Shown here: piece after piece, positions 5,055 to 18,415 of the stretch
Numbering within the stretch: the stretch's first letter is position 1
Layout: each line of letters opens with the position of its first letter
Sequence record: CP014066.2
Reading direction: 5' to 3' (one strand)
DNA length: 18,415 bases
From: a plasmid
Notes under the pieces: generated by a model
What the model was told of the DNA's origin: nothing
The model's database searches: none
What the model saw: only the letters and a program-made list of their open reading frames with translations
Translations under genes and position numbers: made by a program

Positions 5055-5064
5055 GAGGCCCACT

Positions 5065-6591: not shown

Positions 6592-6607
6592 CTGTTCCTG
6601 GTGGGGC

Positions 6608-6841: not shown

Positions 6842-6904
6842 GATTCACCTCTGTGGTAGGTGGGTTGTGGAAGTGTCGGCCGGCCCCACGCCGGCCGGCG
6901 CGCT

Positions 6905-7162
6905 TTACCGCTGGCCGCTGCTGTAGATGCCGGCGGCCTCGGCCAGCGGCGTGTTCCTGTTGCTGCCGCTGTAGCTGTTGCTCGATGACCTGGCCGCTGG
7001 CCTGGTGGCCTCGATGGCAGACGGGACAGGGCGATCAACGAAGGCCGCCACTTCCGCCGCTGCATCAAGCTCGGTTGATTGGTCGCCAGGCTGCTCAAAC
7101 TCCACCGCCTGACGCTGCACCTGGTCGAGCGCCAGGCAGTCGAAAAATCCACTACGTTTCAT
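6905..7162 (-). CDS. Hypothetical protein, 85 aa (ATG at 7162; the ORF track shows an upstream GTG)
   Basis: RBS GGAGG 7 nt upstream. The start lies 2 nt after the trbL stop. Confidence 0.45.
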   Translation of the reverse strand: MKRSGFFDCLALDQVQRQAVEFEQPGDQSTELDAAAEVAAFVDRPVPSAIEATRPAARSSSNSYSGSNRNTPLAEAAGIYSSGQR

Positions 7163-7164
7163 AG

Positions 7165-8826
7165 TCACGCCTCCGATTTACCGTGCTCGCGGTTGGCGAA
7201 CGCGGCCACTTCATCATCAGGATCGGCAGCGGCCGAATCGGCCCCTGCCAAGTTGTTGTCGCCGAATGTCGGCACCGCCTCGGCAGCGCCGGCCTGGTCG
7301 CTCTCCGCGCGCGCCCTGATCGCCGCCGCGATCTTCCCGCCGGTGGTGTCGGCGATGCGCTCGGCGGCGGCGGCGCGGATGCTGGCGGCCTTGGCCTTCG
7401 CAACCTCTCCGACGCCTTGCATCAGGTTCGCGCTGGCGTCGGCCGTCACGCGGCCCGCCGTGCCAAGCGCCGATGCGGCCGAGGCCAGCAAGCCGGGGCC
7501 GGTGCTGCCTGGTGCGGCCTGCTGGCCGCCTTGCTGGGCGTTCTTGTTGCCGGCGTCGTCGCCCCCTTTCGAGCTGGAACCGCCGCCCGATTTACCGGAC
7601 TGCTGCCCATTGCCGCCACCCGAACCGCTGGCACCTCTGCCCGAGCTGCTGCCGAAACCGGCGGCCTGTGCAAGTGGTGTAGTGGTGCCTGCACCTGAGC
7701 CTGACCCGCCACCAAAGCCAGCAGCTTGCGCAAACGAGCCAGCATCGCTGCCGGAGTCGGAGCCACCGCCGAGCATGGGCATTCCGCCCGATTCACCGCC
7801 AGCGCTCGATCCTGCTTTCTCGAACGCTGCCTTGATCGCCGACATGCCGCCGGCGGCCGAGGCTGCACCACCCATCACGGCCGCACCAGCCACGCTTGCC
7901 GCACCGGCGGCCATGCTCGCCGCGCCCATAGCCGCACCGATGGCAGCACCCGCGCCGAAGTTGCCGATGCCACCCGCGCCGCCGATACCCGAGCCGGTGA
8001 TGATGCCGGCGATGAGAGGGGGCACACGATTGACCAGCATGAGCAACGCCACGCAGAAAACCAGCATCACGCCCAGCTCTTCAAAGTTCAGCGTGCCGGT
8101 GTTCATCCTGGCGTAGAAGCTGGAAAGCAGGTCGTTCCCGATGCCGACCAGGAGCACCATCGTCATGATCTGCACGGCCACGCCCAGCACGGTCTTGTAG
8201 TAGTTGATCGCCATGTCGGACGTCCAACGCGAACCACCGAAGCCGAGGAAGAAGATGCCGGCGTACATCAGCAGCCAGCCCGAGACGAGCAGCAGCAGCA
8301 TATTCACGGCGACAACTGCCAGCAGGATCAGGATGCCAACGCTCAAGGCCACACCGATGAAGCTATCCACGGGCGACCAGATCGACGAGTTTGTGAATGC
8401 CTGCTTCAAGATCATGAAGCCGATATCCACGATGCCCGAGGGTGTCACCGATGCCACCCCGGATGCCTGCTCACCGATCCGGGCCAGTGACTGGATGATC
8501 GAGTTGGCGAAGGCGGGGCCGTTGCGCAGCAGCCAGAGGAAAAAGCCGAAGAACAGAATGAAGCGGATGAACTCGGCGAAGAACTCGCCAATGTCGGCCT
8601 TGCGCAGCGCCATGAAGCCGAACGTGAAAACCAGCGAGATCGTGCCCAGCGTCCAGAACAGGAACATCGCGGCATTCATCACCACCGTCTGCCAGGACGT
8701 GGCCCGCGTGGCGAACTCCGTCACCACCTGGTCAAGCATCCCCTGGTTGGTGAGCTGGGCCGATGCAGCGGTGGAGTAGAGCGCGAGGGTGACGCCGATC
8801 AGCGCCGCCTTGTGCAGTGCTTTCAT
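7165..8826 (-). CDS. trbL: TrbL/VirB6-family conjugal transfer membrane protein with a long Gly/Ala/Ser-rich C-terminal tail (553 aa)
   Basis: N-terminal signal sequence MKALHKAALIGVTLALYSTAASA. Multiple TM helices. Follows trbJ-trbK as in RP4. The track ORF 7165..8991 has no in-frame stop upstream, so its start was trimmed to the ATG with an RBS. Confidence 0.8.
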   Translation of the reverse strand: MKALHKAALIGVTLALYSTAASAQLTNQGMLDQVVTEFATRATSWQTVVMNAAMFLFWTLGTISLVFTFGFMALRKADIGEFFAEFIRFILFFGFFLWLLRNGPAFANSIIQSLARIGEQASGVASVTPSGIVDIGFMILKQAFTNSSIWSPVDSFIGVALSVGILILLAVVAVNMLLLLVSGWLLMYAGIFFLGFGGSRWTSDMAINYYKTVLGVAVQIMTMVLLVGIGNDLLSSFYARMNTGTLNFEELGVMLVFCVALLMLVNRVPPLIAGIITGSGIGGAGGIGNFGAGAAIGAAMGAASMAAGAASVAGAAVMGGAASAAGGMSAIKAAFEKAGSSAGGESGGMPMLGGGSDSGSDAGSFAQAAGFGGGSGSGAGTTTPLAQAAGFGSSSGRGASGSGGGNGQQSGKSGGGSSSKGGDDAGNKNAQQGGQQAAPGSTGPGLLASAASALGTAGRVTADASANLMQGVGEVAKAKAASIRAAAAERIADTTGGKIAAAIRARAESDQAGAAEAVPTFGDNNLAGADSAAADPDDEVAAFANREHGKSEA

Positions 8827-9092
8827 GGCTTCGCCCCCTTCTGGTCTTTCGGGTCGGCCAGTTCGAGCCAGTTCATGGGCTTCTCGGTCGGCGCGATGCC
8901 GCCGGCGGCTGGCGACCGGCGCGAGCACAGCCCGGCGAATTTCTCGCGCGTGGCCCTGTCCTCGATCTTCTTGATCGCCTCGATCTGGCAATTGGTGTCA
9001 TTGACCTCTGGCATGGGCGGGATGGCCGGCTTGTTGTCGCAGCCGGCCATCAGCACCACCACGAGGCCGGCAAGCAGCATCGTTTTCTTCAT
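8823..9092 (-). CDS. trbK: Small lipoprotein in the TrbK position (entry-exclusion protein candidate), 89 aa
   Basis: Lipobox LMAGC after a hydrophobic signal. Located between trbJ and trbL with ATGA overlap to trbL and an RBS GGAGG. Confidence 0.55.
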   Translation of the reverse strand: MKKTMLLAGLVVVLMAGCDNKPAIPPMPEVNDTNCQIEAIKKIEDRATREKFAGLCSRRSPAAGGIAPTEKPMNWLELADPKDQKGAKP

Positions 9093-9107
9093 GGTGCAGG
9101 GCCTCCG

Positions 9108-9893
9108 TCAGCGGGTCAGTTCGAGCCAGTTTCTCGGGCTTGCCGTGCGCTCGATCCTGGATTCCCTGGAAGTCGCGCCGGCGGCCTGCTGCTGCGCTTC
9201 AAGGTCGGCCTGCGCCTGCATCCTGGCGGTAGCGGCGTTCTGCTGCGCGATCAGCAAGCCACGGATTTGCAGGAGCTGGTTCGCCTGGTTGGCGGCGAGC
9301 TGGTTGGCGAAGCCGATAGCCTGCATCTGGCCGGTCGCGCCTTGTGCGGCCGACTGGAGCCGTTCGAGCTGGCGAGCGTCGGCGGTAAGGTTGCGCTGCT
9401 GCTGCTCCAGACCCTTGAAAAGCGCGTCGTTCGCCTTCTTCTGGCTCTCGCTCGACAGGCGGCGGTTTTGCTCCATCGCGGCGCGCTCGGCATCCGAGCA
9501 CCCGGCGGCCGAGAAGCACGGCGAGCTGCGGTAGTAGCTCACATCCTGGAATTTGCCCAGGTAGGCATCGAGACTGCCGAGCTGGTTCCTGTAGTAGTCC
9601 AGCGTGTTGACGGCATTCATCAGCCCGTTGATCGTGGACTGCGCCTGATCCCAGATGTAGGCCGCCGGGGCCATCGTGTTTTGCAGCATGTTCTCGTACT
9701 GCTGCAATTGGGTCTGGTACTGCTCGATCTGCTTGAGCGTCTGCGCCACCGACTCGATGGCCGTCATGACGTTCTGCACCAGGTTCCCGCCGTCGATGAC
9801 GGGGATGCCGGCCTGCGCTGGGGTGATGATGATGCTGCCGGCCAGGACGGCGGCGAGCGCGGTTTTAGCCGCTAAAAGGCGGACGTGCTTCAT
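9108..9893 (-). CDS. trbJ: TrbJ (VirB5-like) conjugal transfer protein, 261 aa
   Basis: Product MKHVRLLAAK...AQAGIPVIDGGNLVQNVMTAIESVAQTLKQIEQYQTQLQQYENMLQNT... closely parallels RP4 TrbJ from memory. Confidence 0.85.
   Translation of the reverse strand: MKHVRLLAAKTALAAVLAGSIIITPAQAGIPVIDGGNLVQNVMTAIESVAQTLKQIEQYQTQLQQYENMLQNTMAPAAYIWDQAQSTINGLMNAVNTLDYYRNQLGSLDAYLGKFQDVSYYRSSPCFSAAGCSDAERAAMEQNRRLSSESQKKANDALFKGLEQQQRNLTADARQLERLQSAAQGATGQMQAIGFANQLAANQANQLLQIRGLLIAQQNAATARMQAQADLEAQQQAAGATSRESRIERTASPRNWLELTR
9864..9876. promoter_or_regulatory. KorB-operator-type palindrome TTTAGCCGCTAAA (OB-like site 1), inside the 5' end of trbJ
   Basis: Exact match to the RK2 OB consensus TTTAGC(G/C)GCTAAA. 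One of four copies. Confidence 0.7.
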
Positions 9894-10083
9894 GGTCGAG
9901 TTCCTCGATGTGATGAAGTGGCTGCTCTGAACCGCACCTAGAAGATGCGGAGCTGGGCCATCACAGAGACAGCTCGCCACGTCGCGCTGTCCGGTACCCG
10001 ACCTTGGCGACACCGTTGCGCCCGGCCATTTTTGTTGAACATCGGTGTAGTGCTATCTAACGTCATTCGCGCCAGATAGCAAA

Positions 10084-10111
10084 ATTATACATTAAGCACG
10101 CATAACGACAA
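10084..10111 (-). promoter_or_regulatory. Sigma70-type promoter on the minus strand: -35 TTGTCG, 16-bp spacer, -10 TATAAT. Reads toward trbJ-trbK-trbL
   Basis: Perfect -10 hexamer. Paralogous to the parA promoter at 17136..17163. Confidence 0.55.
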
Positions 10112-10128
10112 GCACAAAAGCACGCAAT

Positions 10129-11961
10129 CTATCGCCCGCGCCCCTTGCCCTTGTCCTGGCGTTTGGCCTTCTTGGCTTCCATCTGCGCCCGTAGCCGTGC
10201 CTGGCGCTGTTCCAGCTCGGACGGCGCGGGCTTGGCCGGCTGCTGCACTTTGGCCGGCGGCGGTGTCGGGGTGGCCTGGGTCGGTGCTTGTGCCGGCCGC
10301 TGGGCTTCGCCCTCGATGTGCAGCCCGTCGAGCTGGCCCAACGTGCGCAGGCCATGCCGGCGATGCGGTGGCGGTTCCTGGCCGACAGGGGGCACACCCA
10401 GCCGGCGCTTGGCCTGGGCCTTGGTGGCCTCGGCCTGCCGCCGGCTTTCCAGTGCCGGATCGGCGAAGGTGATGGGGAGCTGGGCATCGACGGCCGCCCG
10501 GATCACGGCAGCCTTGAACTCCACGCTGCCGCTGACAGTGATGCGCTCGCCGTAGCGTTCCATTGCCAGGCGCAGCGCCGCCGCCACGCCGGCGCGGTCG
10601 GCCTGGCTGGACACGGCCAGACGCTCGCCGTCATCGCGCACGGCCGAGCTGCCGGCGCGGTAGATGATCGTGCCCTTCTTCGTGATGCTGTCGATCACCG
10701 GGGTATGGCCGGGCTTCGCCTGGCCGTCGCCCTGGATGGTGTCGCCCTTGAGGCCCTGGGCCGCCTCGCGGGCGCGCAGCGCATCGAGCGCCTGGCCGTC
10801 GCCGGCCGTTGCCTGCTGCTTGAGCCAGTCGGCCCACGGCCGCCGGCGGTGCTCGTTGTAGATCGCCGCCCGCTCCTGGTCGTGGCGCTTGTGGATCGCC
10901 TCCAGGTCGGCCCGCAGCGCGGCGCTGGCCTGGGCATACAGCAGCTTCTTGGTCAGCCGGCCATCGGTCAGGTGCTTGATGGCCGCCCGCCGGGTGGCCG
11001 CCGCCTTCTTGGCGTTCTCGATGGCCCGATCCTTCCGGCGCTTCGCCTCGGCCAGCACGCCGGCCCTGGCGGCCGTGAGGGTCTGCTGTGCGCCCTTGTA
11101 CCGGGCGTAAAGCTCGGTCGTGTCCAGGCCGCCGCGCAGACGCATCGGCCGGCCCTTCTGGTAGTTGCGCCGTGCCGGCGCGGCCTGGCGCTCGGGCGAC
11201 GCCTCGAACGTGCCAAGCCGCTTTTCCAGGGCAGGCTTGGACAGGTCGCGGGCCAAGGTGCTGGCCTTGATGATCGTGCCGTCGCCGGCCTCGATGACCA
11301 GGCCGTTACCGCGTGCGCGCAGCGCCAGGCCGTTATCGCGCATGACCTGGTGCAGCTCGGCCCAGCTCGCCGCGCCCTTGATCTCGTCCAGGCACTCGCG
11401 CTTGATCCAGCCGACCAGGCTTTCCACGCCGGCGTGCTGCTCCAGGTCGCCGGCCCTGGCGGCCGCGCCGCGCTGGCGTGACTCGTGGTTGTCACGCTCC
11501 AGGCCGTAGTCGCGTTCCAGGGTCGTGCAGAGGTCGGCCAGCGCCCGATGCGAGTAGTACGGCTCCTGCATCGTGCCCCTGGTCGGGTGAATCTTGTTGA
11601 TGGCGATGTGGATGTGCAGGTTGTCGGTGTCGTTATGCACGGCGCTGACGCGCTGATGCTCGCCCAGGCCCAGCCCGTCGCAGATGCGGGCCTCGATCTG
11701 CCGCAGGGTGTCGGCGCTCGGCTGCTCGCCGGCGCGAAAGCTGACGATCAGGTGATAGGTCTTGTCGCCCTTGGCCCGCGTGTTGGCCTGCTGGGTCGCC
11801 AGCACCTCGGTGATGGCATCGCGCACGGTGTCGGCGGCGCAGTTCGTGACCTGCACCTGGCCCAGCCGGTGGTCTTTGCTCTGCGCGTCGGTGACATACC
11901 GCACCAGGCCGGCGAAGTCGGACTTACCCAGCGAGCGCATGGGCACGTGCTTGGCGATCAC
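10129..11961 (-). CDS. traI: MobP-family relaxase TraI (GTG start), 610 aa
   Basis: N-terminus VIAKHVPMRSLGKSDFAGLVRYVTDAQ... and the HxH motif HNDTDNLHIHIAINKIHP match RP4 TraI. The start overlaps the traJ stop (GTGA). Confidence 0.88.
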   Translation of the reverse strand: MIAKHVPMRSLGKSDFAGLVRYVTDAQSKDHRLGQVQVTNCAADTVRDAITEVLATQQANTRAKGDKTYHLIVSFRAGEQPSADTLRQIEARICDGLGLGEHQRVSAVHNDTDNLHIHIAINKIHPTRGTMQEPYYSHRALADLCTTLERDYGLERDNHESRQRGAAARAGDLEQHAGVESLVGWIKRECLDEIKGAASWAELHQVMRDNGLALRARGNGLVIEAGDGTIIKASTLARDLSKPALEKRLGTFEASPERQAAPARRNYQKGRPMRLRGGLDTTELYARYKGAQQTLTAARAGVLAEAKRRKDRAIENAKKAAATRRAAIKHLTDGRLTKKLLYAQASAALRADLEAIHKRHDQERAAIYNEHRRRPWADWLKQQATAGDGQALDALRAREAAQGLKGDTIQGDGQAKPGHTPVIDSITKKGTIIYRAGSSAVRDDGERLAVSSQADRAGVAAALRLAMERYGERITVSGSVEFKAAVIRAAVDAQLPITFADPALESRRQAEATKAQAKRRLGVPPVGQEPPPHRRHGLRTLGQLDGLHIEGEAQRPAQAPTQATPTPPPAKVQQPAKPAPSELEQRQARLRAQMEAKKAKRQDKGKGRGR

Positions 11962-12335
11962 GATTGTCCGCCTCGCGGCCGCACCACGCTTTCCGCGATG
12001 GTGCTGATCTTGTCCTGGGTCGCCTCGATCCGGGCCAGCAGCGCCCGGATGGTGTCATCGCCGAAGCGGGCCGTGCGCGGGTCGTCGGTCAGCCAGAGCT
12101 TGAGCAGGCCGCCCAGCCGGCCGAGGTCGCCATTCACGCGCACCAGGTCGCGCACGTTCTCGAAGTCGGTCACGCCTTTGACCTGGTAGCCCTGGCCGAC
12201 CGCCAGCAGGTAGGCGGACGTGCTCATGCCGGCGGCCTGGGCGTTGGCCTCGATGGCGGCCCGTTCATCCGGCAGGCAATAGACCTTGATGGGCGTGCTG
12301 CCCTTCCTCGTTACCTTGTTCTCGTTGGCCTCCAT
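11958..12335 (-). CDS. traJ: Relaxosome accessory protein TraJ (oriT-binding), 125 aa
   Basis: Product ...GSTPIKVYCLPDERAAIEANAQAAGMSTSAYLLAVGQGY...NGDLGRLGGLLKLWLTDDPRTARFGD... is very similar to RP4 TraJ from memory. Confidence 0.85.
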   Translation of the reverse strand: MEANENKVTRKGSTPIKVYCLPDERAAIEANAQAAGMSTSAYLLAVGQGYQVKGVTDFENVRDLVRVNGDLGRLGGLLKLWLTDDPRTARFGDDTIRALLARIEATQDKISTIAESVVRPRGGQS

Positions 12336-12427
12336 CTTGGCGTCCTCTGTCGTTGCCGGCGGCCGCCGGCTGGCCCCGCAGGGCAGGATGCCCCGTTGAG
12401 CGCCGCAGGCGCGAATAAGGGGAAGTG

Positions 12428-12480
12428 AAGAGGATCACCATGCTTGCATGGTGGGCCTACTTCACACATCCTGCCCTCTA
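12428..12480 (+). other. oriT: oriT: TraJ-binding inverted repeat CACCATGC-TT-GCATGGTG (12428..12445) and nick region GGGCCTACTTCACACATCCTG|CCC (predicted nic between 12473 and 12474)
   Basis: Near-identical to the RP4 oriT nick region (GGGCCTACTTCACCTATCCTGCCC) from memory. Lies between divergent traJ and traK. Confidence 0.75.
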
Positions 12481-12690
12481 TTCAGCATTGCATTCAATGC
12501 GGAAACTATACACGCGCCATTGTGGATTTGCATGGTATCTAGCAAGGAAACCTAGCGCCTATGGATGCAACACGGCAAAATGCAGGGGAATCCGCTTGCT
12601 TGCAGGACTTCACGCGCCGTTTCAGCGCATATTCCATGTGCTTTCCACTAGCTTTACACACATGAACCCGCGTGCATTACACAAACAGGA

Positions 12691-13119
12691 ATGAAGCCGA
12701 TGGGAACCCGATACACCGATGAACTTGCCGCCTGGGCCGATCAGAAGGCCGAGAAGAAGCGCCGCCAGGACGCGGCGGCAGTAGCGTTTCTGGCGGTGCG
12801 CGGGGATGTGGTCGAGGCAATGGAAGCCGGCTACGCGCTGACGACGATCTACGATCACATGCACGAAACCGGCCGGGTGAAAACCAGCTATGAGACGTTC
12901 CGCCGGCACGTCCAGCGGTTCATCAAGGCAGCGCCGGCCGACACCGCGCCGCCGACACCGAAGGCCGCCACCAGGTCGGCCAGCAACTCGCCGACCACCG
13001 TTCCAGCCGTCACGCCAAAGCCGGCCGTACCAGCTCCGGCCAGCCCTGCCAGCGAGCAAGCCGGGAAGATTCCCAGCTTCAATTTCAACCCGACGCCGAA
13101 CAAAGAGGACTTGCTGTAA
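12691..13119 (+). CDS. traK: TraK oriT-binding relaxosome protein (alternative start at 12700), 142 aa
   Basis: Product ...YTDELAAWADQKAEKKRRQDAAAVAFLAVRGDVVEAMEAGYALTTIYDHMHETGRVKTSYETFRRHV... parallels RP4 TraK. Divergent from traJ across oriT. Confidence 0.8.
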   Translation: MKPMGTRYTDELAAWADQKAEKKRRQDAAAVAFLAVRGDVVEAMEAGYALTTIYDHMHETGRVKTSYETFRRHVQRFIKAAPADTAPPTPKAATRSASNSPTTVPAVTPKPAVPAPASPASEQAGKIPSFNFNPTPNKEDLL

Positions 13120-13180
13120 GCGCCCCAAGGGGCAAGTCGGACGCCAAGGGGAATATGCGTGCTGTTTGCCTTGCGTGCTT

Positions 13181-13193
13181 TTTAGCGGCTAAA
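13181..13193. promoter_or_regulatory. KorB-operator-type palindrome TTTAGCGGCTAAA (OB-like site 2), preceded by the TTGCGTGCTTTT motif shared with the two TATAAT promoters
   Basis: Exact 13-mer. Confidence 0.7.
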
Positions 13194-13197
13194 GCGT

Positions 13198-13247
13198 GCC
13201 CCTCAAGTGTCAATGTGCTGCCTGGGCTTTATTGACACTTGAGGGGC
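13198..13247. repeat. Perfect 17-bp inverted repeat GCCCCTCAAGTGTCAAT-N16-ATTGACACTTGAGGGGC. Each arm contains the RK2 oriV iteron sequence TGACACTTGAGGGGC
   Basis: Arms at 13198..13214 and 13231..13247 are exact reverse complements. Located between the convergent traK and kfrA 3' ends. Confidence 0.8.
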
Positions 13248-13253
13248 GGTCGA

Positions 13254-14159
13254 TCACTCGCCGCCGGGCTTTTTCCTGGTCGGCTTCGCCTCGGCCGCCG
13301 GCGGCGTGATGCGAGCCAGCAGCGCGGCCGATTGTTCCTTGAGCGTGTCGAGCTGCCCGGCCAGGCGGGCGGCTTCCTCGCGGGCCTGTGCGGCCGCCTT
13401 CGTGGCCTGGTCGCGCTCGGCCTGGGCGGCGGTGAGGCGTTCGGCCATGCGATGTGCCTCGCCCGCTGTGGCCTTGCGCTGTTCCTGGTGAGCTTCCTCG
13501 CTGGCCTCGGCCTTGGCCTGTACCTTCACCAGCTCGGCGCGCACCTGGTCGAGTTGAGCGGCGGCCGCCTGGCTGGCCTTCTGCTGTTCAGCCAGTGCCC
13601 CGCGTGCCTGGTCGGCGTCCTGGTGCGCCCTGTCCAGTTCCGTGCGCAGCTCGCCGGCCCGGCGCTCGATCTCTTGGGCGCGGGCCTCTGCCGTGTGCGC
13701 CTGTTCCTGGGCGGTAGCCAGTTGGCCGCGCAGCTCGTCGGCTTCGCCGCGTGCGGCCGCTTCGGCGGCCTCGATGGACGCCAGGCGGGATTGCAGGGCT
13801 TCCACGTCGCCGGCCAGTTTGTCGGCCAGCTCGGTTGCCTCGTTGCGGTCGGCTTCCAGCTCGGCGCGGGCCTTCTCCAGCCCTTCCCGCTCAACGGCAA
13901 GGCGGGCGTTCGCCAGGTCGAGGGCGATTGTCCATAGGTCGCTGCCCAGTTCGGCCAGGCGGTCGGCGACGGCCTGGGGCGCAGGCTCGCGCAGGGGCGC
14001 GGCGGCGGTGGCCTGGCGGGCCTTCCACTCGTTCAGGGCCGGGGAAATGGTTGTGTAGCTCCCGCCGGTGATCTGCCGGATTGCCTCAAGCGTGGGCTTC
14101 TGGCCGGCGGCGGCCAAGTCGTCGGCGGCGGAAAAAATCTGCTCTTTCGTGACTGCCAT
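13254..14159 (-). CDS. kfrA: KfrA: N-terminal DNA-binding domain plus long Ala/Glu/Gln-rich coiled-coil, 301 aa
   Basis: N-terminus MAVTKEQIFSAADDLAAAGQKPTLEAIRQITGGSYTTISPALNEWKARQ parallels IncP-1 KfrA. Alanine-rich heptad-like tail. RBS AGGAG. Confidence 0.85.
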   Translation of the reverse strand: MAVTKEQIFSAADDLAAAGQKPTLEAIRQITGGSYTTISPALNEWKARQATAAAPLREPAPQAVADRLAELGSDLWTIALDLANARLAVEREGLEKARAELEADRNEATELADKLAGDVEALQSRLASIEAAEAAARGEADELRGQLATAQEQAHTAEARAQEIERRAGELRTELDRAHQDADQARGALAEQQKASQAAAAQLDQVRAELVKVQAKAEASEEAHQEQRKATAGEAHRMAERLTAAQAERDQATKAAAQAREEAARLAGQLDTLKEQSAALLARITPPAAEAKPTRKKPGGE

Positions 14160-14189
14160 AGCGGTTGCTCCTGTATGAAATGTAGTGTT

Positions 14190-14230
14190 GTAGTATGTTG
14201 TATGATACTACTACATACTACGATTTACAA
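14190..14230 (-). promoter_or_regulatory. kfrA promoter/operator. Inverted repeat GTAGTATG-N16-CATACTAC with internal GTTGTA/TACTAC direct repeats overlaps a putative -10 TATCAT (reverse complement of 14202..14207) and -35 TTGTAA (reverse complement of 14225..14230), 17-bp spacing
   Basis: Palindrome and hexamers read directly. KfrA is known to autoregulate through a palindromic operator. Confidence 0.55.
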
Positions 14231-14839
14231 GCCCTACAGGAAAATACTACGCCGCTACCCTGGGGCCAGCCCGGCCGCGAGCGCGTGACGGTCGAAATTC
14301 GGCCCTGGAAGGCCCGTAGAGGCGTTTTTAGGGGGTCGGCGGCCCTACCCCCTGGCCTCGGCCGGTTTCGCGCCTCCTGGGCGCTCCTGGGTGGCCTGGC
14401 CGTGGTGCGCTTGGGCCTGCATCGTTGGATGTGGCGATGCTGGCCAGCTCGCCCGCCCTTTTTCTTGGCGTTCAACCTGCGGCCTTCCAGCTCGCGCCGG
14501 CGGTCGAGATTGGGCACGACCTCGGCAAACCGCTTTTCCTGCTAAACCTGCTTTTCTTGGGCTGTCGAGTTGCCGCGGTGCTCGATGAGTGTGCAGGCGG
14601 TGGAGCTGTCACCGGCGCGGCTTGCCGCGCTCTTGGTAAGCCAGTCCTGGCCGTTAGGCCAGGCACGATTGCCGGAGGGGGAGCCGGCGAAGCCGGGGGA
14701 ACCCCGCAGGGGTGCCCCGCCGAAGGCGCAGGCCGGCGCCGTAGGCGACGGGGCGGAGGGCCGAAGGCCCGGAGGGTAGGCGCGCCCGTAGGGCGTTGCG
14801 GCGGTTCGGTTTGCGCTGTCGGTTGAGTTTTCCACCGAT

Positions 14840-15147
14840 TTGGCCTGCCTATTACCAGCAATAAATTTATAGGAAAGACATTAAAGGCAAACCTTACAGG
14901 TTTAGGGGGGGGGCGATTTCACGAACCAGGGGGGGGGCGATTTCACGTGGATAAGCCACCCAAGGGGGGGGCGATTTCACGAACCAGGGGGGGGCGATTT
15001 CACGTGGATAAGTGCGGCTATCCACAGGGTTTGTCCCCAGTTCAGGGCCTGGCCGAGGGGTGTGTGCCTGGTCAGCCCTGAAACGACGCGGCCGCCTCGA
15101 TCTCGGGGCGGCCGGTGCGGTGCTGTAAGGGGGGGGGCGATTTCACG
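14840..15147. repeat. oriV: oriV candidate. AT-rich tract 14840..14895, then five direct iterons G(8-9)CGATTTCACG at 14896..14913, 14919..14937, 14954..14971, 14977..14994 and 15129..15147. DnaA-box-like sequences lie at 14936..14945 and 15003..15012 (CGTGGATAAG, i.e. TTATCCACG on the minus strand) and 15019..15026 (TATCCACA)
   Basis: Repeats read directly, spaced ~23 bp apart in pairs. Adjacent to the 3' end of the rep gene. Confidence 0.75.
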
Positions 15148-15149
15148 AA

Positions 15150-15161
15150 GTTTAGCTAAAC
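15150..15161. promoter_or_regulatory. KorA-operator-type 12-bp palindrome GTTTAGCTAAAC (OA-like), overlapping the rep stop codon and abutting iteron 5
   Basis: Exact match to the RK2 OA consensus. Single copy in the window. Confidence 0.6.
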
Positions 15162-16166
15162 CGTGGGGCCGCCCTTGTAGGGGATGGGCGGTGGCGAGCC
15201 GATCAGCAGCACGCCGCCGGTGACAGGCTTCACCCTCGCTTGCGGATAGACGGCCAGCACCTTCTTGAGCGCCGGCAAAAACTCCTTCTTGAAGTCCTTG
15301 TCGGGGTCTTTGCCTCGGTACTCCTGGGCGAACTGCTCGCGCAGCGCCTTCCAGTGCAACGTCACACCTCGGCCTTCGATGCGGTGCAGTCGGTGGGCCA
15401 GCCACGCATACACGTCCAGGGCCAGCGCGGAACCTTTCAGGGCGTGCAGAGCGCGATTGTCCAGCGGCACGGCGCTTTCGATCAGGGAGCCGTAGTAGTC
15501 CTCTGACAGCACCATGACGCCGGGCCATAGGGCGCGCTGCTGCGTGTCCTTGTTCGACACCCAGGCGTCGAATTGCTGCACCGGCTGGCCGTTGTAGGTG
15601 CGCCCCTTGAACCCGAGTTGCAGGCGAGCGGCGGCAAGGGCGTGCATCTGCTTCCGTAGCGTCGTGTAGCGGCGGCCGTCGCTCTCCATCCCCATCAGCC
15701 GCAGGAACTCGGCGGCACTGTCGCCGATGGGAATCTCCCGCTCCTTGTTGCGCACGGCGAAGGTGGAAACCCACGCCAGACCAAGCCGGGGCATGACGCC
15801 ATAGGGGATAGGTTGCAGCACCGGCCCCTTCCCTTCGTCCAGATAGCCGGCCTGGACATTGACCCAGGCCGCGCCGGACTGTCGCATGAACTCACGGCCT
15901 TCGACCTTGGCGCGAGGCAAACCGACCTGGCACAGCACCGCATGAGTGAAAGCCATGTCCTCGCCGGCCGGCGGGGTGGTGGCAATCTCCGCGCTGGCCT
16001 CGATCAGCTTCTGGTCGGCCCCGGTCAAGATGAGGCCGGCCGGCGTGATCTTCTTGGTTTGGCGCTTCGGCGGCGGCAATGCTGCCTTGGCCTGCGCCTG
16101 GGCCACCAGGTCGCCCATGATCTCGCCGATCTGCTGCGCGCCCTGCCCTTCTCGCTTCTTGGTCAT
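15156..16166 (-). CDS. trfA: Plasmid replication initiator, TrfA-family (probable), 336 aa
   Basis: Balanced, protein-like composition in contrast to the overlapping junk ORFs. Adjacent to the iterons. RBS GGAGGG. Recognised as TrfA-like from memory, not from a computed alignment. Confidence 0.65.
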   Translation of the reverse strand: MTKKREGQGAQQIGEIMGDLVAQAQAKAALPPPKRQTKKITPAGLILTGADQKLIEASAEIATTPPAGEDMAFTHAVLCQVGLPRAKVEGREFMRQSGAAWVNVQAGYLDEGKGPVLQPIPYGVMPRLGLAWVSTFAVRNKEREIPIGDSAAEFLRLMGMESDGRRYTTLRKQMHALAAARLQLGFKGRTYNGQPVQQFDAWVSNKDTQQRALWPGVMVLSEDYYGSLIESAVPLDNRALHALKGSALALDVYAWLAHRLHRIEGRGVTLHWKALREQFAQEYRGKDPDKDFKKEFLPALKKVLAVYPQARVKPVTGGVLLIGSPPPIPYKGGPTV

Positions 16167-16180
16167 GCTGGTGGCCCTCC

Positions 16181-16193
16181 TTTAGCGGCTAAA
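16181..16193. promoter_or_regulatory. KorB-operator-type palindrome TTTAGCGGCTAAA (OB-like site 3), 2 bp upstream of the rep RBS in the 29-bp parG-rep intergenic gap
   Basis: Exact 13-mer. Confidence 0.7.
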
Positions 16194-16195
16194 AG

Positions 16196-16447
16196 TCAAT
16201 GGCCGTGCCGCTTCTCGTACTCATCGAAGGCCAAGCGCAGCAGCTCGTTCAGCTTGAGGTCGTGATTGGCTGCGAACACGCGGAAGCGGCGGCGAAGGTC
16301 GGCCGACACGCGAAAGTTCAGCGGCACATTGTTGGCCTCTGCTTCCTCGGCCGGCGCTGCGCTGCGGGCTGGCACGTTGGCAACTGGCGCGGCCTGGCCC
16401 TTGGTTGCGACCAGGCCGGAAAGGTCGGCGGGTTTCTTGGCTGCCAT
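16196..16447 (-). CDS. Small RHH centromere-binding-type partition protein (ParG/ParB-small-like), 83 aa
   Basis: C-terminal RHH signature NVPLNFRVSADLRRRFRVFAANHDLKLNELLRLAFDEY. Immediately follows parA (stop and start adjacent). Confidence 0.6.
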   Translation of the reverse strand: MAAKKPADLSGLVATKGQAAPVANVPARSAAPAEEAEANNVPLNFRVSADLRRRFRVFAANHDLKLNELLRLAFDEYEKRHGH

Positions 16448-17098
16448 TTATACGGTTTCCTTCTTTTTGGTTTTCGTCTTTACGTGCAAGCGTTCAAGCA
16501 CGAAAGACAATAATTGTCGCATTTCCTCGGCGCTTCGGCTCTTGGCGTCTGTCTCGCTCACTGTGCGGCCATCGACCATCGAGGCCGCGTAATCCACGCG
16601 GTCATGCACGATTGCCGGAGCCACGGCCCCATGCGCTGACAGGGCGGCGACGGCCTGCACGGTCAGCCTGGCGGTCGGCTTGGCCTGGGTGACGGCAAAG
16701 GCGAACGGCCGGCCGGCTTCCTGAGCAATATCCACGGTGCTGCCAACAGCGCGCAGGTCGTGCGGGCTGGGCCTCGTCGGGATCAGCACCAGGTCGGCCA
16801 GCTTCACCACGTCGCGGATGGCGGCCGTAATCGCCGGCGGCGTGTCGATGACGGCCAGCTTGAACCCTGCCGCTGCCAGGCCCTCTAGCTTCGTCGCCAG
16901 CTCGGCCAGGCTGGCCGATGCCAGCGCGGGCGTATCGGCCTCGCGCGAGTTCCACCAGGCCGACAGCGAGCCTTGCGGGTCGGTGTCGATCAGGACTGCC
17001 GGCCCTGCGCCCTCCTGCTCGGCTGTGACGGCCAGGTGAGCGGCAAGGGTAGTCTTGCCCGCGCCGCCCTTCTGGCTTGCTATGACGATGGTTTTCAT
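16448..17098 (-). CDS. parA: ParA-family partition ATPase (small type Ib), 216 aa
   Basis: Deviant Walker A KGGAGKTT at the N-terminus (MKTIVIASQKGGAGKTTLAAHLAV). Confidence 0.85.
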   Translation of the reverse strand: MKTIVIASQKGGAGKTTLAAHLAVTAEQEGAGPAVLIDTDPQGSLSAWWNSREADTPALASASLAELATKLEGLAAAGFKLAVIDTPPAITAAIRDVVKLADLVLIPTRPSPHDLRAVGSTVDIAQEAGRPFAFAVTQAKPTARLTVQAVAALSAHGAVAPAIVHDRVDYAASMVDGRTVSETDAKSRSAEEMRQLLSFVLERLHVKTKTKKKETV

Positions 17099-17135
17099 TC
17101 TGCTTTGCGTGCCTCCGAGCTAAGACAATATGGCA

Positions 17136-17163
17136 ATTATACGCCATTAACGCATAGCAGCAA
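17136..17163 (-). promoter_or_regulatory. Sigma70-type promoter on the minus strand: -35 TTGCTG, 16-bp spacer, -10 TATAAT. Apparently the sole promoter for the parA-parG-rep operon
   Basis: Perfect -10. An OB-like site lies 27 bp upstream of the -35. Confidence 0.55.
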
Positions 17164-17189
17164 GCACAAAAGCACGCAAAGCAGATAAT

Positions 17190-17202
17190 TTTAGCCGCTA
17201 AA
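17190..17202. promoter_or_regulatory. KorB-operator-type palindrome TTTAGCCGCTAAA (OB-like site 4), overlapping the resolvase stop codon and upstream of the parA promoter
   Basis: Exact 13-mer. Confidence 0.7.
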
Positions 17203-18106
17203 GTTTGCGCCGCCGCGCCCGCTCGGTGTCTGCCAGGTCGCCGGGCCACGTCGCCAGCTCGTCATCGGTGAGGCCCGCCAGGATTTGCGGCAGGTTTTGG
17301 GTTCGGTACGGGGGCATCGGCAGATCAGCGGCCGGGCCTTCATCATCATCTAGGAAAGCCGGCTCGGGCAGCTCGGCCGCGCCCTGCTCCACGTCGGCCG
17401 CCTCGCCGGCGTCGGCCTCGGTCAATGCGTCCTCCACGAAAGCGCCATGCCTGGCCGCCTCGGCCTGGCTCATGTCACGGCTGGCCCATATCCGTTTGAC
17501 CTGGGCCACGCTGCACCCGGCCAGCTTGGCCGTCTCCGCGATGCTCTGGCCGATGCTGCGCAACGCGATCACCTGGGCGCGTAGCTTCGGATCGGCCCGC
17601 CGTCCCTTGTAGCGGCCGTCCCGCTTCGCCAGCTCGATGCCCTGGCGCTGCCGCTCGCGCCTGTCCTCGTAGTCGTCGCGGGCCATCTGTAGGGCCAGCT
17701 TCAAAAGCATGTCCTGGACGGATTCCAGGACGATCTTGGCGACGCCCTGGGCCTCGGCCGCCAGGTCGGATAGATCGACCACGCCAGGGACGGCCAGGCG
17801 CGCACCCTTGGCCCGGATCGAGGCCACCAGGCGCTCGGCCTCGGGCAAGGGTAGGCGGCTGATGCGGTCGATCTTCTCGGCAATGACCACCTCGCCCGGT
17901 TGCAGGTCGGCCACCATGCGCAGCAGCTCGGGCCGGTCAGCGCGTGCGCCGCTGGCTTTCTCGCGGTAGATGCCGGCCACGTAGTACCCGGCGGCCTTCG
18001 CGGCCGTGATGATCCCTTCCTGGCGTTCAAGGTCTTGCGCGTCGGTGCTGACGCGCAGATAGACCCGCGCCACCATCGGCGCGGCTGCTGGCTTCGTCCT
18101 GCTCAT
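17198..18106 (-). CDS. Serine recombinase (resolvase family) with an acidic C-terminal extension. Start chosen at the ATG preceded by AAGGAG (an alternative upstream ATG lies at 18124)
   Basis: N-terminal catalytic motif VARVYLRVSTDAQDLERQ. Occupies the position of RK2 ParA resolvase, divergent from the ParE-type TA operon. Confidence 0.8.
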   Translation of the reverse strand: MSRTKPAAAPMVARVYLRVSTDAQDLERQEGIITAAKAAGYYVAGIYREKASGARADRPELLRMVADLQPGEVVIAEKIDRISRLPLPEAERLVASIRAKGARLAVPGVVDLSDLAAEAQGVAKIVLESVQDMLLKLALQMARDDYEDRRERQRQGIELAKRDGRYKGRRADPKLRAQVIALRSIGQSIAETAKLAGCSVAQVKRIWASRDMSQAEAARHGAFVEDALTEADAGEAADVEQGAAELPEPAFLDDDEGPAADLPMPPYRTQNLPQILAGLTDDELATWPGDLADTERARRRKL

Positions 18107-18180
18107 GCTGGCTCCTTTGGGCATACCTGAATGCGCCTATCGTAGCCCGGCAGGCTCATTTATCAAAGCACGATCTATAT

Positions 18181-18205
18181 TGTCGTTTTCAGAAGACGGC
18201 TGCAC
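18181..18205 (+). repeat. IRi, 25-bp terminal inverted repeat at the intI1 end of the integron (TGTCGTTTTCAGAAGACGGCTGCAC)
   Basis: Exact 25-mer. Partner of IRt (23/25 identical in inverted orientation). Confidence 0.9.
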
Positions 18206-18382
18206 TGAACGTCAGAAGCCGACTGCACTATAGCAGCGGAGGGGTTGGATCCATCAGGCAACGACGGGCTGCTGCCGGCCATCAGCGGACGCAGGGAGGA
18301 CTTTCCGCAACCGGCCGTTCGATGCGGCACCGATGGCCTTCGCGCAGGGGTAGTGAATCCGCCAGGATTGACTTGCGCTGCC

Positions 18383-18415
18383 CTACCTCTCACTAGTGAG
18401 GGGCGGCAGCGCATC
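18383..18415 (-). CDS. intI1: intI1 3' end (10 codons DALPPLTSER plus TAG), in frame with 1..981 if the window is circular
   Basis: The reverse complement of 18383..18415 reads GATGCGCTGCCGCCCCTCACTAGTGAGAGGTAG. Frame continuity gives 1,014 nt = 337 aa plus stop. Confidence 0.8.
   Translation of the reverse strand, partial: DALPPLTSER

What the first reader, a model, noticed from the sequence alone, without database searches (positions are those of the whole stretch)
9864..17202. Four perfect KorB-operator-type palindromes but no korB gene
TTTAGC(G/C)GCTAAA occurs exactly four times: 9864..9876, 13181..13193, 16181..16193 and 17190..17202. This is far more than chance for a 13-mer. Every copy is at a regulatory junction: the trbJ 5' end just downstream of the trbJ promoter, between traK and kfrA next to the iteron inverted repeat, 2 bp before the rep RBS, and just upstream of the parA promoter. 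In RK2 this palindrome is the binding site of KorB (a ParB homologue and global repressor). No ~350-aa ParB/KorB homologue is encoded here; the only par-associated DNA-binding protein is an 83-aa RHH protein. The plasmid's key operons (par-rep, trb remnant) may therefore be wired to be repressed or partitioned by KorB supplied in trans from a co-resident IncP-1 plasmid. This would be a satellite or parasitic regulatory arrangement. Alternatively the small RHH protein has taken over this operator.
Basis: partly seen in the sequence, partly recalled or inferred. Interest (0 to 1): 0.8.

Follow-up and report, generated by a model that had tools for sequence, protein, structure and literature searches.

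The report
Orphan IncP-1 control sites on satellite plasmid
A small mobilizable resistance plasmid carries perfect binding sites for three proteins of IncP-1 plasmids (KorB, KorA and the replication initiator TrfA) but none of their genes, so it and many relatives appear built to be read by an IncP-1 helper plasmid, although no binding has been tested.

Summary
TTTAGCSGCTAAA occurs exactly four times, where none is expected by chance. The window is a complete 18,415-bp circular plasmid with no korB, korA, trbA, korC or trfA.

Two further kinds of IncP-1 site are present. One is a perfect KorA operator (15150-15161), which overlaps the rep stop codon and lies 2 nt from a resident iteron. The other is an inverted pair of perfect TrfA iterons (13198-13247) next to the 13181 palindrome.

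About 20 korAB-less relatives from beta-, gamma- and alpha-proteobacteria carry the same set. They span several Rep and partition types and two relaxase types. The sites sit at fixed positions while their flanks diverge.

RHH proteins fall into at least four types. Each type has its own operator motif, and that motif changes together with the RHH type at both the parA and trbJ promoters. The palindrome never changes. KfrA also has its own R751-like operator.

The oriT is IncP-1 type. Related plasmids share a cell with IncP-1beta plasmids in two sequenced strains.

Best reading (about 0.55): conserved cross-talk in trans with IncP-1 helpers. No binding or phenotype has been tested.

The parts
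9864..9876 (.). KorB-operator palindrome OB-1, inside trbJ codons 6-10 (encodes L-A-A-K)
   Evidence: Exact match. Same position and same encoded residues as the palindrome in R751 trbJ at L003:25579, so it was inherited with the trb module.
13181..13193 (.). KorB-operator palindrome OB-2, between the 3' ends of traK and kfrA, flanked by GCGTGC boxes
   Evidence: An iteron followed by this palindrome downstream of kfrA recurs in most korAB-less relatives.
13198..13247 (.). Inverted pair of perfect IncP-1 TrfA-type iterons (TTGACACTTGAGGGGC at 13198-13213 on the minus strand and 13232-13247 on the plus strand)
   Evidence: Two exact 16-mers, with 0.12 expected even at three mismatches. The same 15-mer clusters in the oriV of R751 and p2-T1. 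The iteron sequence is given in PMC3614916 and PMC3273809.
15150..15161 (.). Perfect KorA operator OA (GTTTAGCTAAAC), overlapping the rep stop codon and 2 nt from a resident iteron
   Evidence: 0.01 expected by chance. With one flanking base it forms a 13-nt invariant run in 10 rep loci of mean 80% nucleotide identity.
16181..16193 (.). KorB-operator palindrome OB-3, between the RHH stop codon and the rep ribosome-binding site
   Evidence: A palindrome at the 5' end of rep is present in all 10 RepA_C-type loci, and in front of other rep variants next to at least four partition types.
17190..17202 (.). KorB-operator palindrome OB-4, overlapping the resolvase stop codon, centred about 67 bp upstream of the inferred parA transcription start
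   Evidence: Present at the same junction in front of two unrelated partition-operator arrays.
17099..17185 (-). parA promoter (TTGCTG-N16-TATAAT) with a resident operator: TTGCGTGC / GCACGCAA inverted repeats
   Evidence: (repeats I20 and D8). The motif is specific to this RHH type.
16448..17098 (-). parA, a 216-aa ParA ATPase with no N-terminal DNA-binding domain (type Ib)
   Evidence: Pfam AAA_31/CbiA/ParA hits. One of only two protein families found in all 17 loci compared.
16196..16447 (-). 83-aa ribbon-helix-helix partner of ParA (ParG-like)
   Evidence: Pfam RHH_10, E = 1e-7. One of at least four RHH types in the family, each with its own operator motif.
15156..16166 (-). rep, RepA_C-family initiator, unrelated to TrfA
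   Evidence: Pfam RepA_C. No TrfA hit in the window.
14906..15155 (.). Resident iterons (GGGGGGGGCGATTTCACG, five copies), marking the plasmid's own oriV
   Evidence: Repeat family D2 and the sequence itself.
14180..14235 (-). kfrA promoter with GTAGTAT / ATACTAC repeats, the probable KfrA operator
   Evidence: A very similar repeat block lies at R751 kfrAp, where the KorB and KorA operators are separate neighbouring sites. KfrA operators are promoter-overlapping repeats (PMC7783346).
13254..14159 (-). kfrA, 64% identical to R751 KfrA over aligned columns
   Evidence: Pfam KfrA_N, alignment, tblastn.
12336..12690 (.). IncP-1-type oriT (nick region conserved with R751), containing the traJ-II RNA motif
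   Evidence: Alignment with R751 oriT. Rfam RF01760 at 12372-12476.
10129..12335 (-). traJ (11958-12335) and traI relaxase (10129-11961), IncP-1-like
   Evidence: Pfam. TraI about 72% identical to R751 TraI in the best segment.
12691..13119 (+). traK homologue
   Evidence: Pfam DUF5338. Annotated as TraK family in relatives.
10083..10127 (-). trbJ promoter carrying the same resident operator motif as the parA promoter
   Evidence: 45-nt direct repeat D8 shared with 17135-17179, promoter scan. pMATVIM-7 has its own RHH-type motif at this exact position.
7165..9893 (-). trbJ (9108-9893), trbK entry-exclusion gene (8823-9092) and trbL (7165-8826), a remnant of the IncP-1 Tra2 region
   Evidence: tblastn against R751: TrbJ 76%, TrbK 50%, TrbL 57%.
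17198..18124 (-). 308-aa serine resolvase. The class 1 integron is inserted just upstream of it.
   Evidence: Pfam Resolvase plus HTH_7. Integron content.

Best explanation
The four palindromes are genuine KorB operators. They belong to a larger conserved set of IncP-1 cis-acting sites: four KorB operators, one KorA operator and two TrfA iterons. The plasmid that carries them replicates, partitions and regulates itself with unrelated proteins (a RepA_C initiator, a type Ib ParA with an RHH partner, and KfrA). It has no korA, korB or trfA.

The plasmid has an IncP-1-type oriT and relaxosome. No coupling-protein gene was found, and of the mating-pair apparatus only trbJKL is present. It must therefore pass through cells that hold an IncP-1-like helper in order to transfer.

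Proposed mechanism, inferred from published RK2 biochemistry. In such a cell, helper KorB loads at the four operators as a CTP-dependent sliding clamp. The spacing is about 1 kb, 1 kb, 2 kb and 3.3 kb, so clamps could cover the whole 8-kb backbone. Helper KorA bound at the rep/oriV boundary would latch KorB there. Helper TrfA would bind the iteron pair.

Without a helper the sites would stay empty and the plasmid would run on its own circuits.

Shown here: the sites, their exact identity to defined operators and iterons, the absence of the cognate genes, family-wide positional conservation, separate operators for the resident RHH and KfrA proteins, the IncP-1-type oriT, and natural co-residence for two relatives.

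Inferred: binding in vivo, and every phenotype.
For: - Exact matches to the RK2/R751 KorB operator, four copies with 0 expected. One KorA operator with 0.01 expected. Two TrfA iterons. The operator and iteron sequences are as published.
- No KorB, KorA, TrbA, KorC or TrfA by tblastn or Pfam on a complete circle. Complete relatives also lack them.
- About 20 korAB-less loci carry 2-4 exact KorB operators, and most of them also one exact KorA operator. Loci with only distant KfrA and no KorB have none. Loci with a distant KorB (39-41% identity) also lack the canonical palindrome.
- Anchoring on rep rather than on the sites: all 10 RepA_C loci (mean nucleotide identity 0.80) keep a perfect KorA operator at the rep stop and a KorB operator at the rep 5' end, one of them with a single mismatch. 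The KorA operator plus one flanking base is the third-longest invariant run in 1,842 columns.
- In the other Rep type the KorA operator sits mid-way in the rep promoter region. This recalls R751 trfAp, where it overlaps the -10.
- The flanks of the KorB operators are near random (pairwise identity 0.3-0.5) while the arms are 0.97-1.0.
- The resident RHH operator motif changes with the RHH type at the parA promoter, at the post-kfrA site and at the trbJ promoter. The KorB operator never changes.
- The kfrA promoter has its own R751-like repeats.
- The oriT nick region is conserved with R751.
- Co-residence: pKAM339_3 with the IncP-1beta plasmid pKAM339_2, and p3-T1 with the IncP-1beta plasmid p2-T1, which encodes KorA, IncC, KorB and TrfA.
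- Mechanistic basis: KorB slides at least 1.5 kb from its operator and is latched by operator-bound KorA (PMC11790492).
- Precedent: SGI1 hijacks the ParB/parS system of its IncC helper (PMC10954446).
Against: - No experiment has been done, so binding in vivo and any benefit are inferred.
- The plasmid is self-sufficient for replication and partition. The relative pSMC1 is described as highly stable.
- None of about 12 isolate genomes with such plasmids in the species-representative collection also yielded an IncP-1 kfrA locus. Three of five strains checked in the plasmid collection had no IncP-1 partner among the neighbouring records that could be retrieved.
- Repression of a satellite's rep, par and relaxase genes by its helper is not obviously advantageous.
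- The trbJ site is plainly inherited. Other sites could have arrived by recombination, because homology blocks between relatives end within a few bases of OB-3, OB-4 and one iteron.
- The measured conservation of the operator arms is partly by construction, since sites were collected by similarity to the operator. Only the rep-anchored and iteron-anchored tests avoid this.
- Some relatives carry single-mismatch sites.
Confidence: 0.55

Rival explanations
1. One or more unrecognised resident factors, plasmid- or host-encoded, with the same specificity as KorB and KorA bind these sites. The network would then be self-contained and unrelated to IncP-1 helpers.
For: The sites are conserved in many hosts that carry no detectable IncP-1. 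Several small ORFs in the family have no Pfam match. The sites sit directly beside the resident RHH operator arrays.
Against: Only ParA and KfrA are shared by all 17 loci compared, with the resolvase in 14. Type Ib ParA has no domain for sequence-specific binding. KfrA has its own R751-like operator at its promoter. A 13-bp palindrome is too compact for a resolvase dimer site (established knowledge of serine resolvases). No sequence similarity to KorB or KorA was found. A resident mimic would have to reproduce three different IncP-1 specificities, including that of TrfA.
Confidence: 0.15
2. The sites are relics or recombination joints. They came from IncP-1-like ancestors or arose as microhomology crossover points during module shuffling, and they persist without a present binding function.
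For: The trbJ site is orthologous to the IncP-1 one. The plasmid is a mosaic of pNOR-2000-type and pMATVIM-7-type modules. Homology blocks with relatives end at 16194-16199 (OB-3), at 17189-17190 or 17208 (OB-4) and at 13232 (an iteron). Some family members have TrfA-like Rep genes (L015 36%, L035 80%).
Against: At about 20% nucleotide divergence an unselected 12-mer would rarely stay perfect, yet the KorA operator is perfect in 10 of 10 rep-anchored loci and the KorB operator in 9 of 10. The sites flank rep genes that are unrelated to trfA. The KorA operator is always next to an iteron or in the rep promoter region. Breakpoints at conserved islands are expected whatever conserves them, so one search does not discriminate.
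Confidence: 0.15
3. The 83-aa RHH partner of ParA has taken over the palindrome as its centromere or operator.
For: It is the only DNA-binding protein linked to the par operon. Two palindromes bracket the par operon. RHH tetramers can bind short palindromes (general knowledge).
Against: At least four RHH types occur in the family. Each has a different operator motif at its own parA promoter and next to the post-kfrA palindrome: GCACGCAA here, TTTACTCA, CGTAAAA and CTATCTAGCT/AGCAGCTAG in others. The palindrome is identical in all of them. The trbJ promoter operator also switches with the RHH type. In the pNOR-2000 type no palindrome lies upstream of parA at all.
Confidence: 0.03
4. The palindrome in front of rep acts at the RNA level, as a small hairpin abutting the Shine-Dalgarno sequence that tunes rep translation or mRNA processing, rather than as a protein-binding DNA site.
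For: The arrangement of palindrome, then GGAGG, then ATG is conserved in front of several rep variants.
Against: The same 13-mer occurs at places that are non-transcribed or transcribed convergently, and inside trbJ. In some relatives it lies within the first rep codons. The central base varies, so the hairpin would have at most 5 bp and a 3-nt loop. This idea does not explain the KorA operator or the iterons.
Confidence: 0.04

Closest known systems
IncP-1 (RK2/R751) global regulon: KorB with its OB operators, KorA with its OA operators, and TrfA with the oriV iterons
   Same: The DNA sites are identical (TTTAGC(G/C)GCTAAA, GTTTAGCTAAAC, TGACACTTGAGGGGC). There are several KorB operators per replicon at promoter-proximal and distal positions. 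One lies inside trbJ at the orthologous position. In relatives the KorA operator lies in the promoter region of the replication gene, as at trfAp.
   Different: korA, incC, korB, trbA, korC and trfA are all absent. Replication uses a RepA_C initiator with its own iterons. Partition uses a type Ib ParA with an RHH partner. There are only two TrfA iterons, in inverted orientation, which is not an origin-like array.
SGI1 and its IncC helper plasmid (helper ParB/parS hijack and AcaCD-dependent promoters; PMC10954446)
   Same: A mobilizable element carries cis-sites for the partition and regulatory proteins of the conjugative helper it depends on for transfer.
   Different: SGI1 is an integrative element with experimentally proven binding and phenotypes. 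Here the element is an autonomous plasmid, the helper family is IncP-1, three classes of helper site are involved, and nothing has been tested.
Type Ib partition systems with an RHH centromere-binding protein (ParF/ParG-parH of TP228)
   Same: A small ParA without an N-terminal DNA-binding domain, followed by an RHH protein of about 75-110 aa. Short repeat arrays lie at the par promoter and at a second site.
   Different: This describes the resident system only. The palindrome is not its repeat unit. It sits beside the arrays and is invariant across RHH types.
pMATVIM-7 (p07-406) / pPE52IMP family and pNOR-2000 / pAX22 family of Pseudomonas resistance plasmids
   Same: The window is a mosaic of the two: res-parA-RHH-rep-oriV-kfrA of the pNOR-2000 type, and traKJI-trbJKL plus toxin-antitoxin genes of the pMATVIM-7 type. 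It is 99.9% identical in backbone to pMRCP1333.
   Different: The papers that could be read describe the genes and note that parB is absent (PMC9501424). None mentions KorB or KorA operators or TrfA iterons. The original p07-406 and pNOR-2000 papers could not be read.

Membership tests
KorB operator (OB) of IncP-1 plasmids | 13-bp palindrome TTTAGC(G/C)GCTAAA | tested here: met
   Four exact copies with 0 expected. Identical to the sites in R751 and to the published sequence.
KorB operator (OB) of IncP-1 plasmids | Several copies spread over the backbone, near promoters of replication, maintenance and transfer operons or distal to them | tested here: met
   One upstream of the parA promoter, one at the rep ribosome-binding site, one inside trbJ about 210 bp downstream of its promoter, one between traK and kfrA.
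KorB operator (OB) of IncP-1 plasmids | Cognate korB (a ParB-family gene of about 350 aa) on the same replicon | tested here: not met
   tblastn with R751 KorB gives no hit better than E = 0.03. Pfam finds no ParB domain. The window is a complete circle.
KorB operator (OB) of IncP-1 plasmids | Bound by KorB, with repression or partition as the result | not testable with these tools
   Needs EMSA, ChIP or reporter assays.
KorA operator (OA) of IncP-1 plasmids | 12-bp palindrome GTTTAGCTAAAC placed at a controlled promoter, with korA on the replicon | tested here: inconclusive
   The sequence is met exactly once, at 15150. Here it lies at the rep stop codon next to an iteron, with no recognisable promoter. 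In pMATVIM-7-type relatives it lies in the rep promoter region. korA is absent.
IncP-1 plasmid | trfA with an oriV iteron array, the korA-incC-korB central control operon, and complete Tra1 and Tra2 regions | tested here: not met
   No TrfA, KorA, KorB, TrbB or TrbE hits. Only kfrA, traK/J/I, oriT and trbJKL are IncP-1-like.
Type Ib ParA/RHH partition system | A short ParA, an RHH partner, and repeat arrays serving as operator and centromere | tested here: met
   ParA of 216 aa and RHH_10 partner. GCGTGC boxes lie at the parA promoter and next to the post-kfrA palindrome. The motif changes with the RHH type. Binding itself was not tested.
Helper-responsive mobilizable element (SGI1-like hijack of helper proteins) | Depends on a defined helper family for transfer, carries cis-sites for helper proteins, and co-occurs with the helper | tested here: inconclusive
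   IncP-1-type oriT and relaxase; no coupling-protein gene found and only trbJKL of the mating-pair genes. Helper cis-sites are present. Co-residence with IncP-1beta was seen for two relatives, not for this plasmid itself. The functional response is untested.

The most novel reading that the evidence does not exclude
A whole, widely distributed family of mobilizable resistance plasmids (pNOR-2000-like, pMATVIM-7-like and their hybrids such as this one) is a dedicated molecular satellite of IncP-1 plasmids. It keeps orphan KorB operators, a KorA operator and TrfA iterons as a three-channel interface. Through it the satellite senses the helper, rides the helper's KorB-IncC partition apparatus, and manipulates helper copy number and transfer by titration or origin handcuffing. 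The same conserved sites act as the joints at which replication, partition and transfer modules are exchanged.
Probability: 0.35. Interest if true: 0.85.

Novelty: new variant of a known kind. Interest (0 to 1): 0.74.

Why it matters
IncP-1 plasmids are the model for global plasmid gene control. KorB was recently shown to be a CTP-dependent sliding clamp that KorA latches.

If other plasmids keep operators for these proteins, the IncP-1 regulon reaches beyond its own replicon. It would then be a natural case of one plasmid reading another plasmid's regulators.

This would bear on several questions:
- how carbapenemase-carrying mobilizable plasmids of Pseudomonas, Achromobacter, Aeromonas and Enterobacterales coexist with their helpers and spread with them;
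- incompatibility and copy-number interactions that replicon typing does not predict;
- plasmid-curing strategies based on KorB, KorA or iteron decoys.

The sites are few, exact and easy to mutate, so the idea can be tested directly.

Tried and rejected
- **Chance.** Rejected.
- **A hidden or divergent korB, korA, trbA, korC or trfA.** None found by six-frame tblastn with R751 proteins, or by Pfam on 30 ORFs from the window and relatives.
- **korB lying outside the window.** Rejected, because the window closes on itself inside intI1 and the complete relative pMRCP1333 lacks korB.
- **The RHH protein as binder.** Rejected by covariation.
- **KfrA as binder.** Unlikely, because it has its own R751-like operator.
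- **A protein shared by all palindrome-bearing plasmids.** ORF clustering found only ParA and KfrA in all 17 loci, and the resolvase in 14.
- **The 97-aa ORF at 14542-14835,** annotated in pMRCP1333. It has no Pfam match, its sequence is low-complexity, and it is not annotated in the RefSeq relatives examined. I treat it as probably non-coding.
- **A promoter at the KorA operator in the window.** No acceptable -35 hexamer was found on inspection.
- **Literature.** Searches for the operator and iteron sequences, KorB/KorA binding sites and the plasmid names found no description of these sites in korAB-less plasmids. One hit was only a PCR primer that happens to include the palindrome upstream of parA of pSMC1. 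The p07-406 paper (PMC2533458) is not held, and the pNOR-2000 paper is not open access, so an earlier mention cannot be excluded.
- **Co-resident plasmids.** Look-ups by neighbouring accession numbers failed for several strains.
- **RK2 itself** (BN000925) is not in the collection, so R751 was used instead.

Full report
**1. What the window is**

The window is a complete circular plasmid of 18,415 bp, opened inside intI1. An uninterrupted 310-codon IntI1 reading frame runs across the join of its end and start.

Its backbone (4943-18145) is 99.9-100% identical to pMRCP1333, a 16,592-bp circular mobilizable plasmid from Pseudomonas paralcaligenes (AP025276.1). The remainder is a class 1 integron region carrying aadB, qacEdelta1, sul1 and IS6100.

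Reading the minus strand, the backbone runs in this order:
- resolvase (18124-17198)
- parA (17098-16448)
- an 83-aa RHH gene (16447-16196)
- a RepA_C-family rep (16166-15156)
- five resident iterons (15155-14906)
- kfrA (14159-13254)
- traK on the plus strand (12691-13119)
- oriT
- traJ and traI (12335-10129)
- trbJ, trbK and trbL (9893-7165)
- a PtaRNA1 type I toxin-antitoxin pair and a ParE/CopG pair

**2.

TTTAGCSGCTAAA occurs exactly four times, at the stated coordinates. None is expected by chance, and there are no near-matches. The half-site hexamers occur essentially nowhere else.

There is no korB. R751 KorB, KorA, TrbA and KorC give no credible tblastn hit, while R751 KfrA, TrbJ, TrbK and TrbL are found easily. 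No ORF has a ParB domain.

**3. Two further kinds of IncP-1 site**

The first is a perfect KorA operator, GTTTAGCTAAAC, at 15150-15161 (0.01 expected). It overlaps the rep stop codon and lies 2 nt from the outlying resident iteron.

The second is the inverted repeat beside the 13181 palindrome. It consists of two perfect copies of TTGACACTTGAGGGGC. This is the IncP-1 TrfA iteron:
- The same 15-mer forms the iteron clusters of R751 and of every IncP-1 locus examined.
- In p2-T1 the cluster lies in the gene-free gap next to trfA.
- The sequence is given as the TrfA iteron in PMC3614916 and appears in the RK2 five-iteron fragment of PMC3273809.

The plasmid therefore carries sites for three IncP-1 proteins and encodes none of them.

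**4. This is a family trait**

Every related korAB-less plasmid I fetched has the same kit. These are pMATVIM-7, an Achromobacter plasmid, a 14-kb Xanthomonas cucurbitae plasmid, and two plasmids with Ti-type TraA relaxases from Enterobacter kobei and Aeromonas caviae.

A KfrA-based scan of one genome per species returned 78 loci. They fall into four groups:
- True IncP-1 loci have KorB and 4-9 palindromes.
- About 20 loci lack any KorB or KorA hit and still have 2-4 exact palindromes. Most of these also have one exact KorA operator. Their hosts include Burkholderia, Extensimonas, Hydrogenophaga, Rhodoplanes, Kerstersia, Orrella, Sphingobium, Pigmentiphaga, Gellertiella and Ottowia.
- Loci with only a distant KfrA and no KorB have none.
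- Loci with a distant KorB (39-41% identity) also lack the canonical palindrome.

The sites occupy fixed structural positions:
- at the 5' end of rep, 8-12 nt before the ATG or inside the first codons, in front of several rep variants and next to at least four partition types;
- downstream of kfrA, next to one or two TrfA iterons;
- at the resolvase stop codon in front of the par promoter;
- immediately upstream of traA, beside the oriT inverted repeat, in the MOBQ-type plasmids;
- inside trbJ.

The KorA operator overlaps the rep stop next to an iteron in RepA_C-type plasmids. In pMATVIM-7-type plasmids it lies in the middle of the rep promoter region. This recalls R751 trfAp, where it overlaps the -10.

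**5. Are the sites under constraint?**

Across non-redundant sites the arms have pairwise identity 0.97-1.0, while flanks in the two most diverse classes are 0.3-0.5. In total 57 of 64 unique sites have perfect arms. That measure is biased, because sites were collected by resemblance to the operator.

Two tests avoid the bias:
- I anchored on rep. Ten RepA_C loci with mean nucleotide identity 0.80 all have a perfect KorA operator at the same alignment column. With one flanking base it is the third-longest invariant run in 1,842 columns. All ten have a palindrome at the rep 5' end, one of them with a single mismatch.
- I anchored on the iteron. The iteron nearest kfrA is followed within 3-8 nt by the palindrome in most relatives, with 0-1 arm mismatches. 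A few relatives (L011, L044, L002, L005) have the iterons without it.

**6. Who binds the palindrome?**

*Not the RHH protein.* The ParA partners are all RHH-like but fall into at least four types, each with its own motif at its own parA promoter:

| Plasmid type | Motif |
|---|---|
| This window | TTGCGTGC / GCACGCAA |
| ParG type (L006 and relatives) | TTTACTCA / TGAGTAAA |
| L045 type | TTTTACG / CGTAAAA |
| pMATVIM-7 type | CTATCTAGCT / AGCAGCTAG |

For three of the types the same motif reappears next to the post-kfrA palindrome. The trbJ promoter carries the window's motif here and pMATVIM-7's motif in pMATVIM-7. Homologous DNA resumes immediately afterwards. So the resident RHH protein has its own small regulon, whose operator co-varies with the protein. 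The palindrome never varies.

*Probably not KfrA.* Its promoter has GTAGTAT/ATACTAC repeats very like those at R751 kfrAp, where the KorB and KorA operators are separate neighbouring sites. Published KfrA operators are promoter-overlapping repeats (PMC7783346).

*No other shared candidate.* Clustering all ORFs from 17 loci shows that only ParA and KfrA are universal, with the resolvase in 14.

An invariant binder supplied from outside is therefore the simplest answer. IncP-1 KorB and KorA have exactly this specificity.

**7. Ecological link to IncP-1**

The oriT aligns with R751 oriT, and the nick region is conserved. TraI, TraJ and TraK are IncP-1-like. No coupling-protein gene was found, and of the mating-pair apparatus only trbJKL is present. 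Transfer therefore needs an IncP-1-like helper.

Two relatives share a cell with IncP-1beta plasmids:
- In Aeromonas caviae KAM339, pKAM339_3 coexists with pKAM339_2, which encodes TrfA, IncC and a KorB-type ParB.
- In Acidovorax sp. T1, p3-T1 coexists with p2-T1, which encodes KorA, IncC, KorB and TrfA.

Three other strains had no IncP-1 partner among the neighbouring records I could retrieve. None of about 12 isolate genomes in the species-representative set yielded a second, IncP-1-type kfrA locus. The plasmids therefore do not need IncP-1 to persist.

**8. Most likely mechanism**

KorB loads at its operator as a CTP-dependent clamp, slides at least 1.5 kb, and is latched by operator-bound KorA into a repressive complex (PMC11790492).

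In the window the four palindromes are about 1, 1, 2 and 3.3 kb apart along the maintenance and transfer backbone. The single KorA operator sits at the rep/oriV boundary. A helper would therefore be expected to do four things:
- coat and silence par-rep and trbJKL;
- park a KorA-KorB complex against the resident origin;
- bind TrfA to the iteron pair;
- tether the plasmid to KorB-IncC partition complexes.

Conversely, a multicopy set of such sites would titrate KorB, KorA and TrfA away from the helper. Which of these effects is selected cannot be decided from sequence.

SGI1, which hijacks the ParB/parS system of its IncC helper, is the closest precedent (PMC10954446).

**9. Rivals**

- An unrecognised resident binder. 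It would explain conservation in helper-free hosts, but there is no candidate.
- Relics or recombination joints. Homology blocks between the window and relatives end at 16194-16199, at 17189-17190 or 17208, and at 13232. These are the edges of OB-3, OB-4 and one iteron. However, any conserved island between swapped modules would give this picture, and relics should not stay perfect at 20% divergence.
- An RNA-level role for the palindrome in front of rep. This cannot explain the other sites.

**10. Novelty**

I found no paper describing KorB or KorA operators or TrfA iterons in these plasmids. One family paper notes only that parB is missing (PMC9501424). The original p07-406 and pNOR-2000 papers could not be read.

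The sites themselves are a known kind. Their conserved presence as an orphan set on helper-dependent plasmids is, as far as I could see, an undescribed variant of helper-satellite cross-talk.

Noticed in passing
window 15150-15161: A perfect KorA operator (GTTTAGCTAAAC) overlaps the rep stop codon, 2 nt from a resident iteron. An exact copy is present in every complete korAB-less relative fetched and in most of the other korAB-less loci.
   Followed up: yes
window 13198-13247: The inverted repeat downstream of kfrA is a pair of perfect IncP-1 TrfA iterons, although the plasmid has no trfA and uses a RepA_C initiator with different iterons.
   Followed up: yes
window 10083-10127 and 17135-17179: The trbJ and parA promoters share a 45-nt block (80% identical) with TTGCGTGCTT boxes. 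In pMATVIM-7 both promoters instead carry AGCAGCTAG/CTATCT boxes that match its different RHH protein. The resident RHH protein therefore appears to control trbJKL as well as par.
   Followed up: yes
window 16194-16199, 17189-17208 and 13232: Homology blocks between this plasmid and relatives end within a few bases of OB-3, OB-4 and one iteron. These conserved sites mark the borders of exchangeable replication, partition and transfer modules.
   Followed up: partly
L007 (pKAM339_3) 142, 7463, 10704: This relative lives with an IncP-1beta plasmid, and three of its four KorB-operator sites carry a single mismatch. One is a pre-rep variant (TTTAGTGGCTAAA on the rep-coding strand) seen in no other locus. 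Two of the variants are shared with other lineages, so they are not all recent.
   Followed up: partly
window 1-4943 and 18146-18415: A class 1 integron (intI1 split by the window ends, aadB/ANT(2'')-Ia cassette, qacEdelta1, sul1, orf5, IS6100) is inserted directly upstream of the resolvase gene. That is the expected target of Tn402-type transposons, which insert at res sites. pMRCP1333 has a different cassette array (qacF, aac(6')-31, blaIMP-1) at the same place.
   Followed up: partly
window 6608-6905: A type I toxin-antitoxin pair: a PtaRNA1-family toxin ORF (6608-6841, minus strand) and the PtaRNA1 antisense RNA (6835-6905, plus strand; Rfam 84.7 bits).
   Followed up: no
window 12372-12476: A traJ-II RNA motif (Rfam RF01760, 109.5 bits) lies in the traJ leader within oriT.
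   Followed up: no
window 5785-6393: A 202-aa ORF downstream of the CopG/ParE pair corresponds to two separate regulator genes (an XRE-family gene and a 'transcriptional regulator') in the Xanthomonas and pMATVIM-7 relatives. It appears fused or rearranged here.
   Followed up: no
window 14240-14900: About 600 bp between the resident iterons and the kfrA promoter is conserved as DNA in many relatives, but has no convincing gene. The 97-aa ORF annotated in pMRCP1333 is low-complexity and has no Pfam match. The region may be part of oriV.
   Followed up: no
window 14160-15155: Relative to pMRCP1333 the window has 12 extra bases somewhere in the iteron/poly-G region. This is the only length difference in the 11.2-kb shared backbone.
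   Followed up: no
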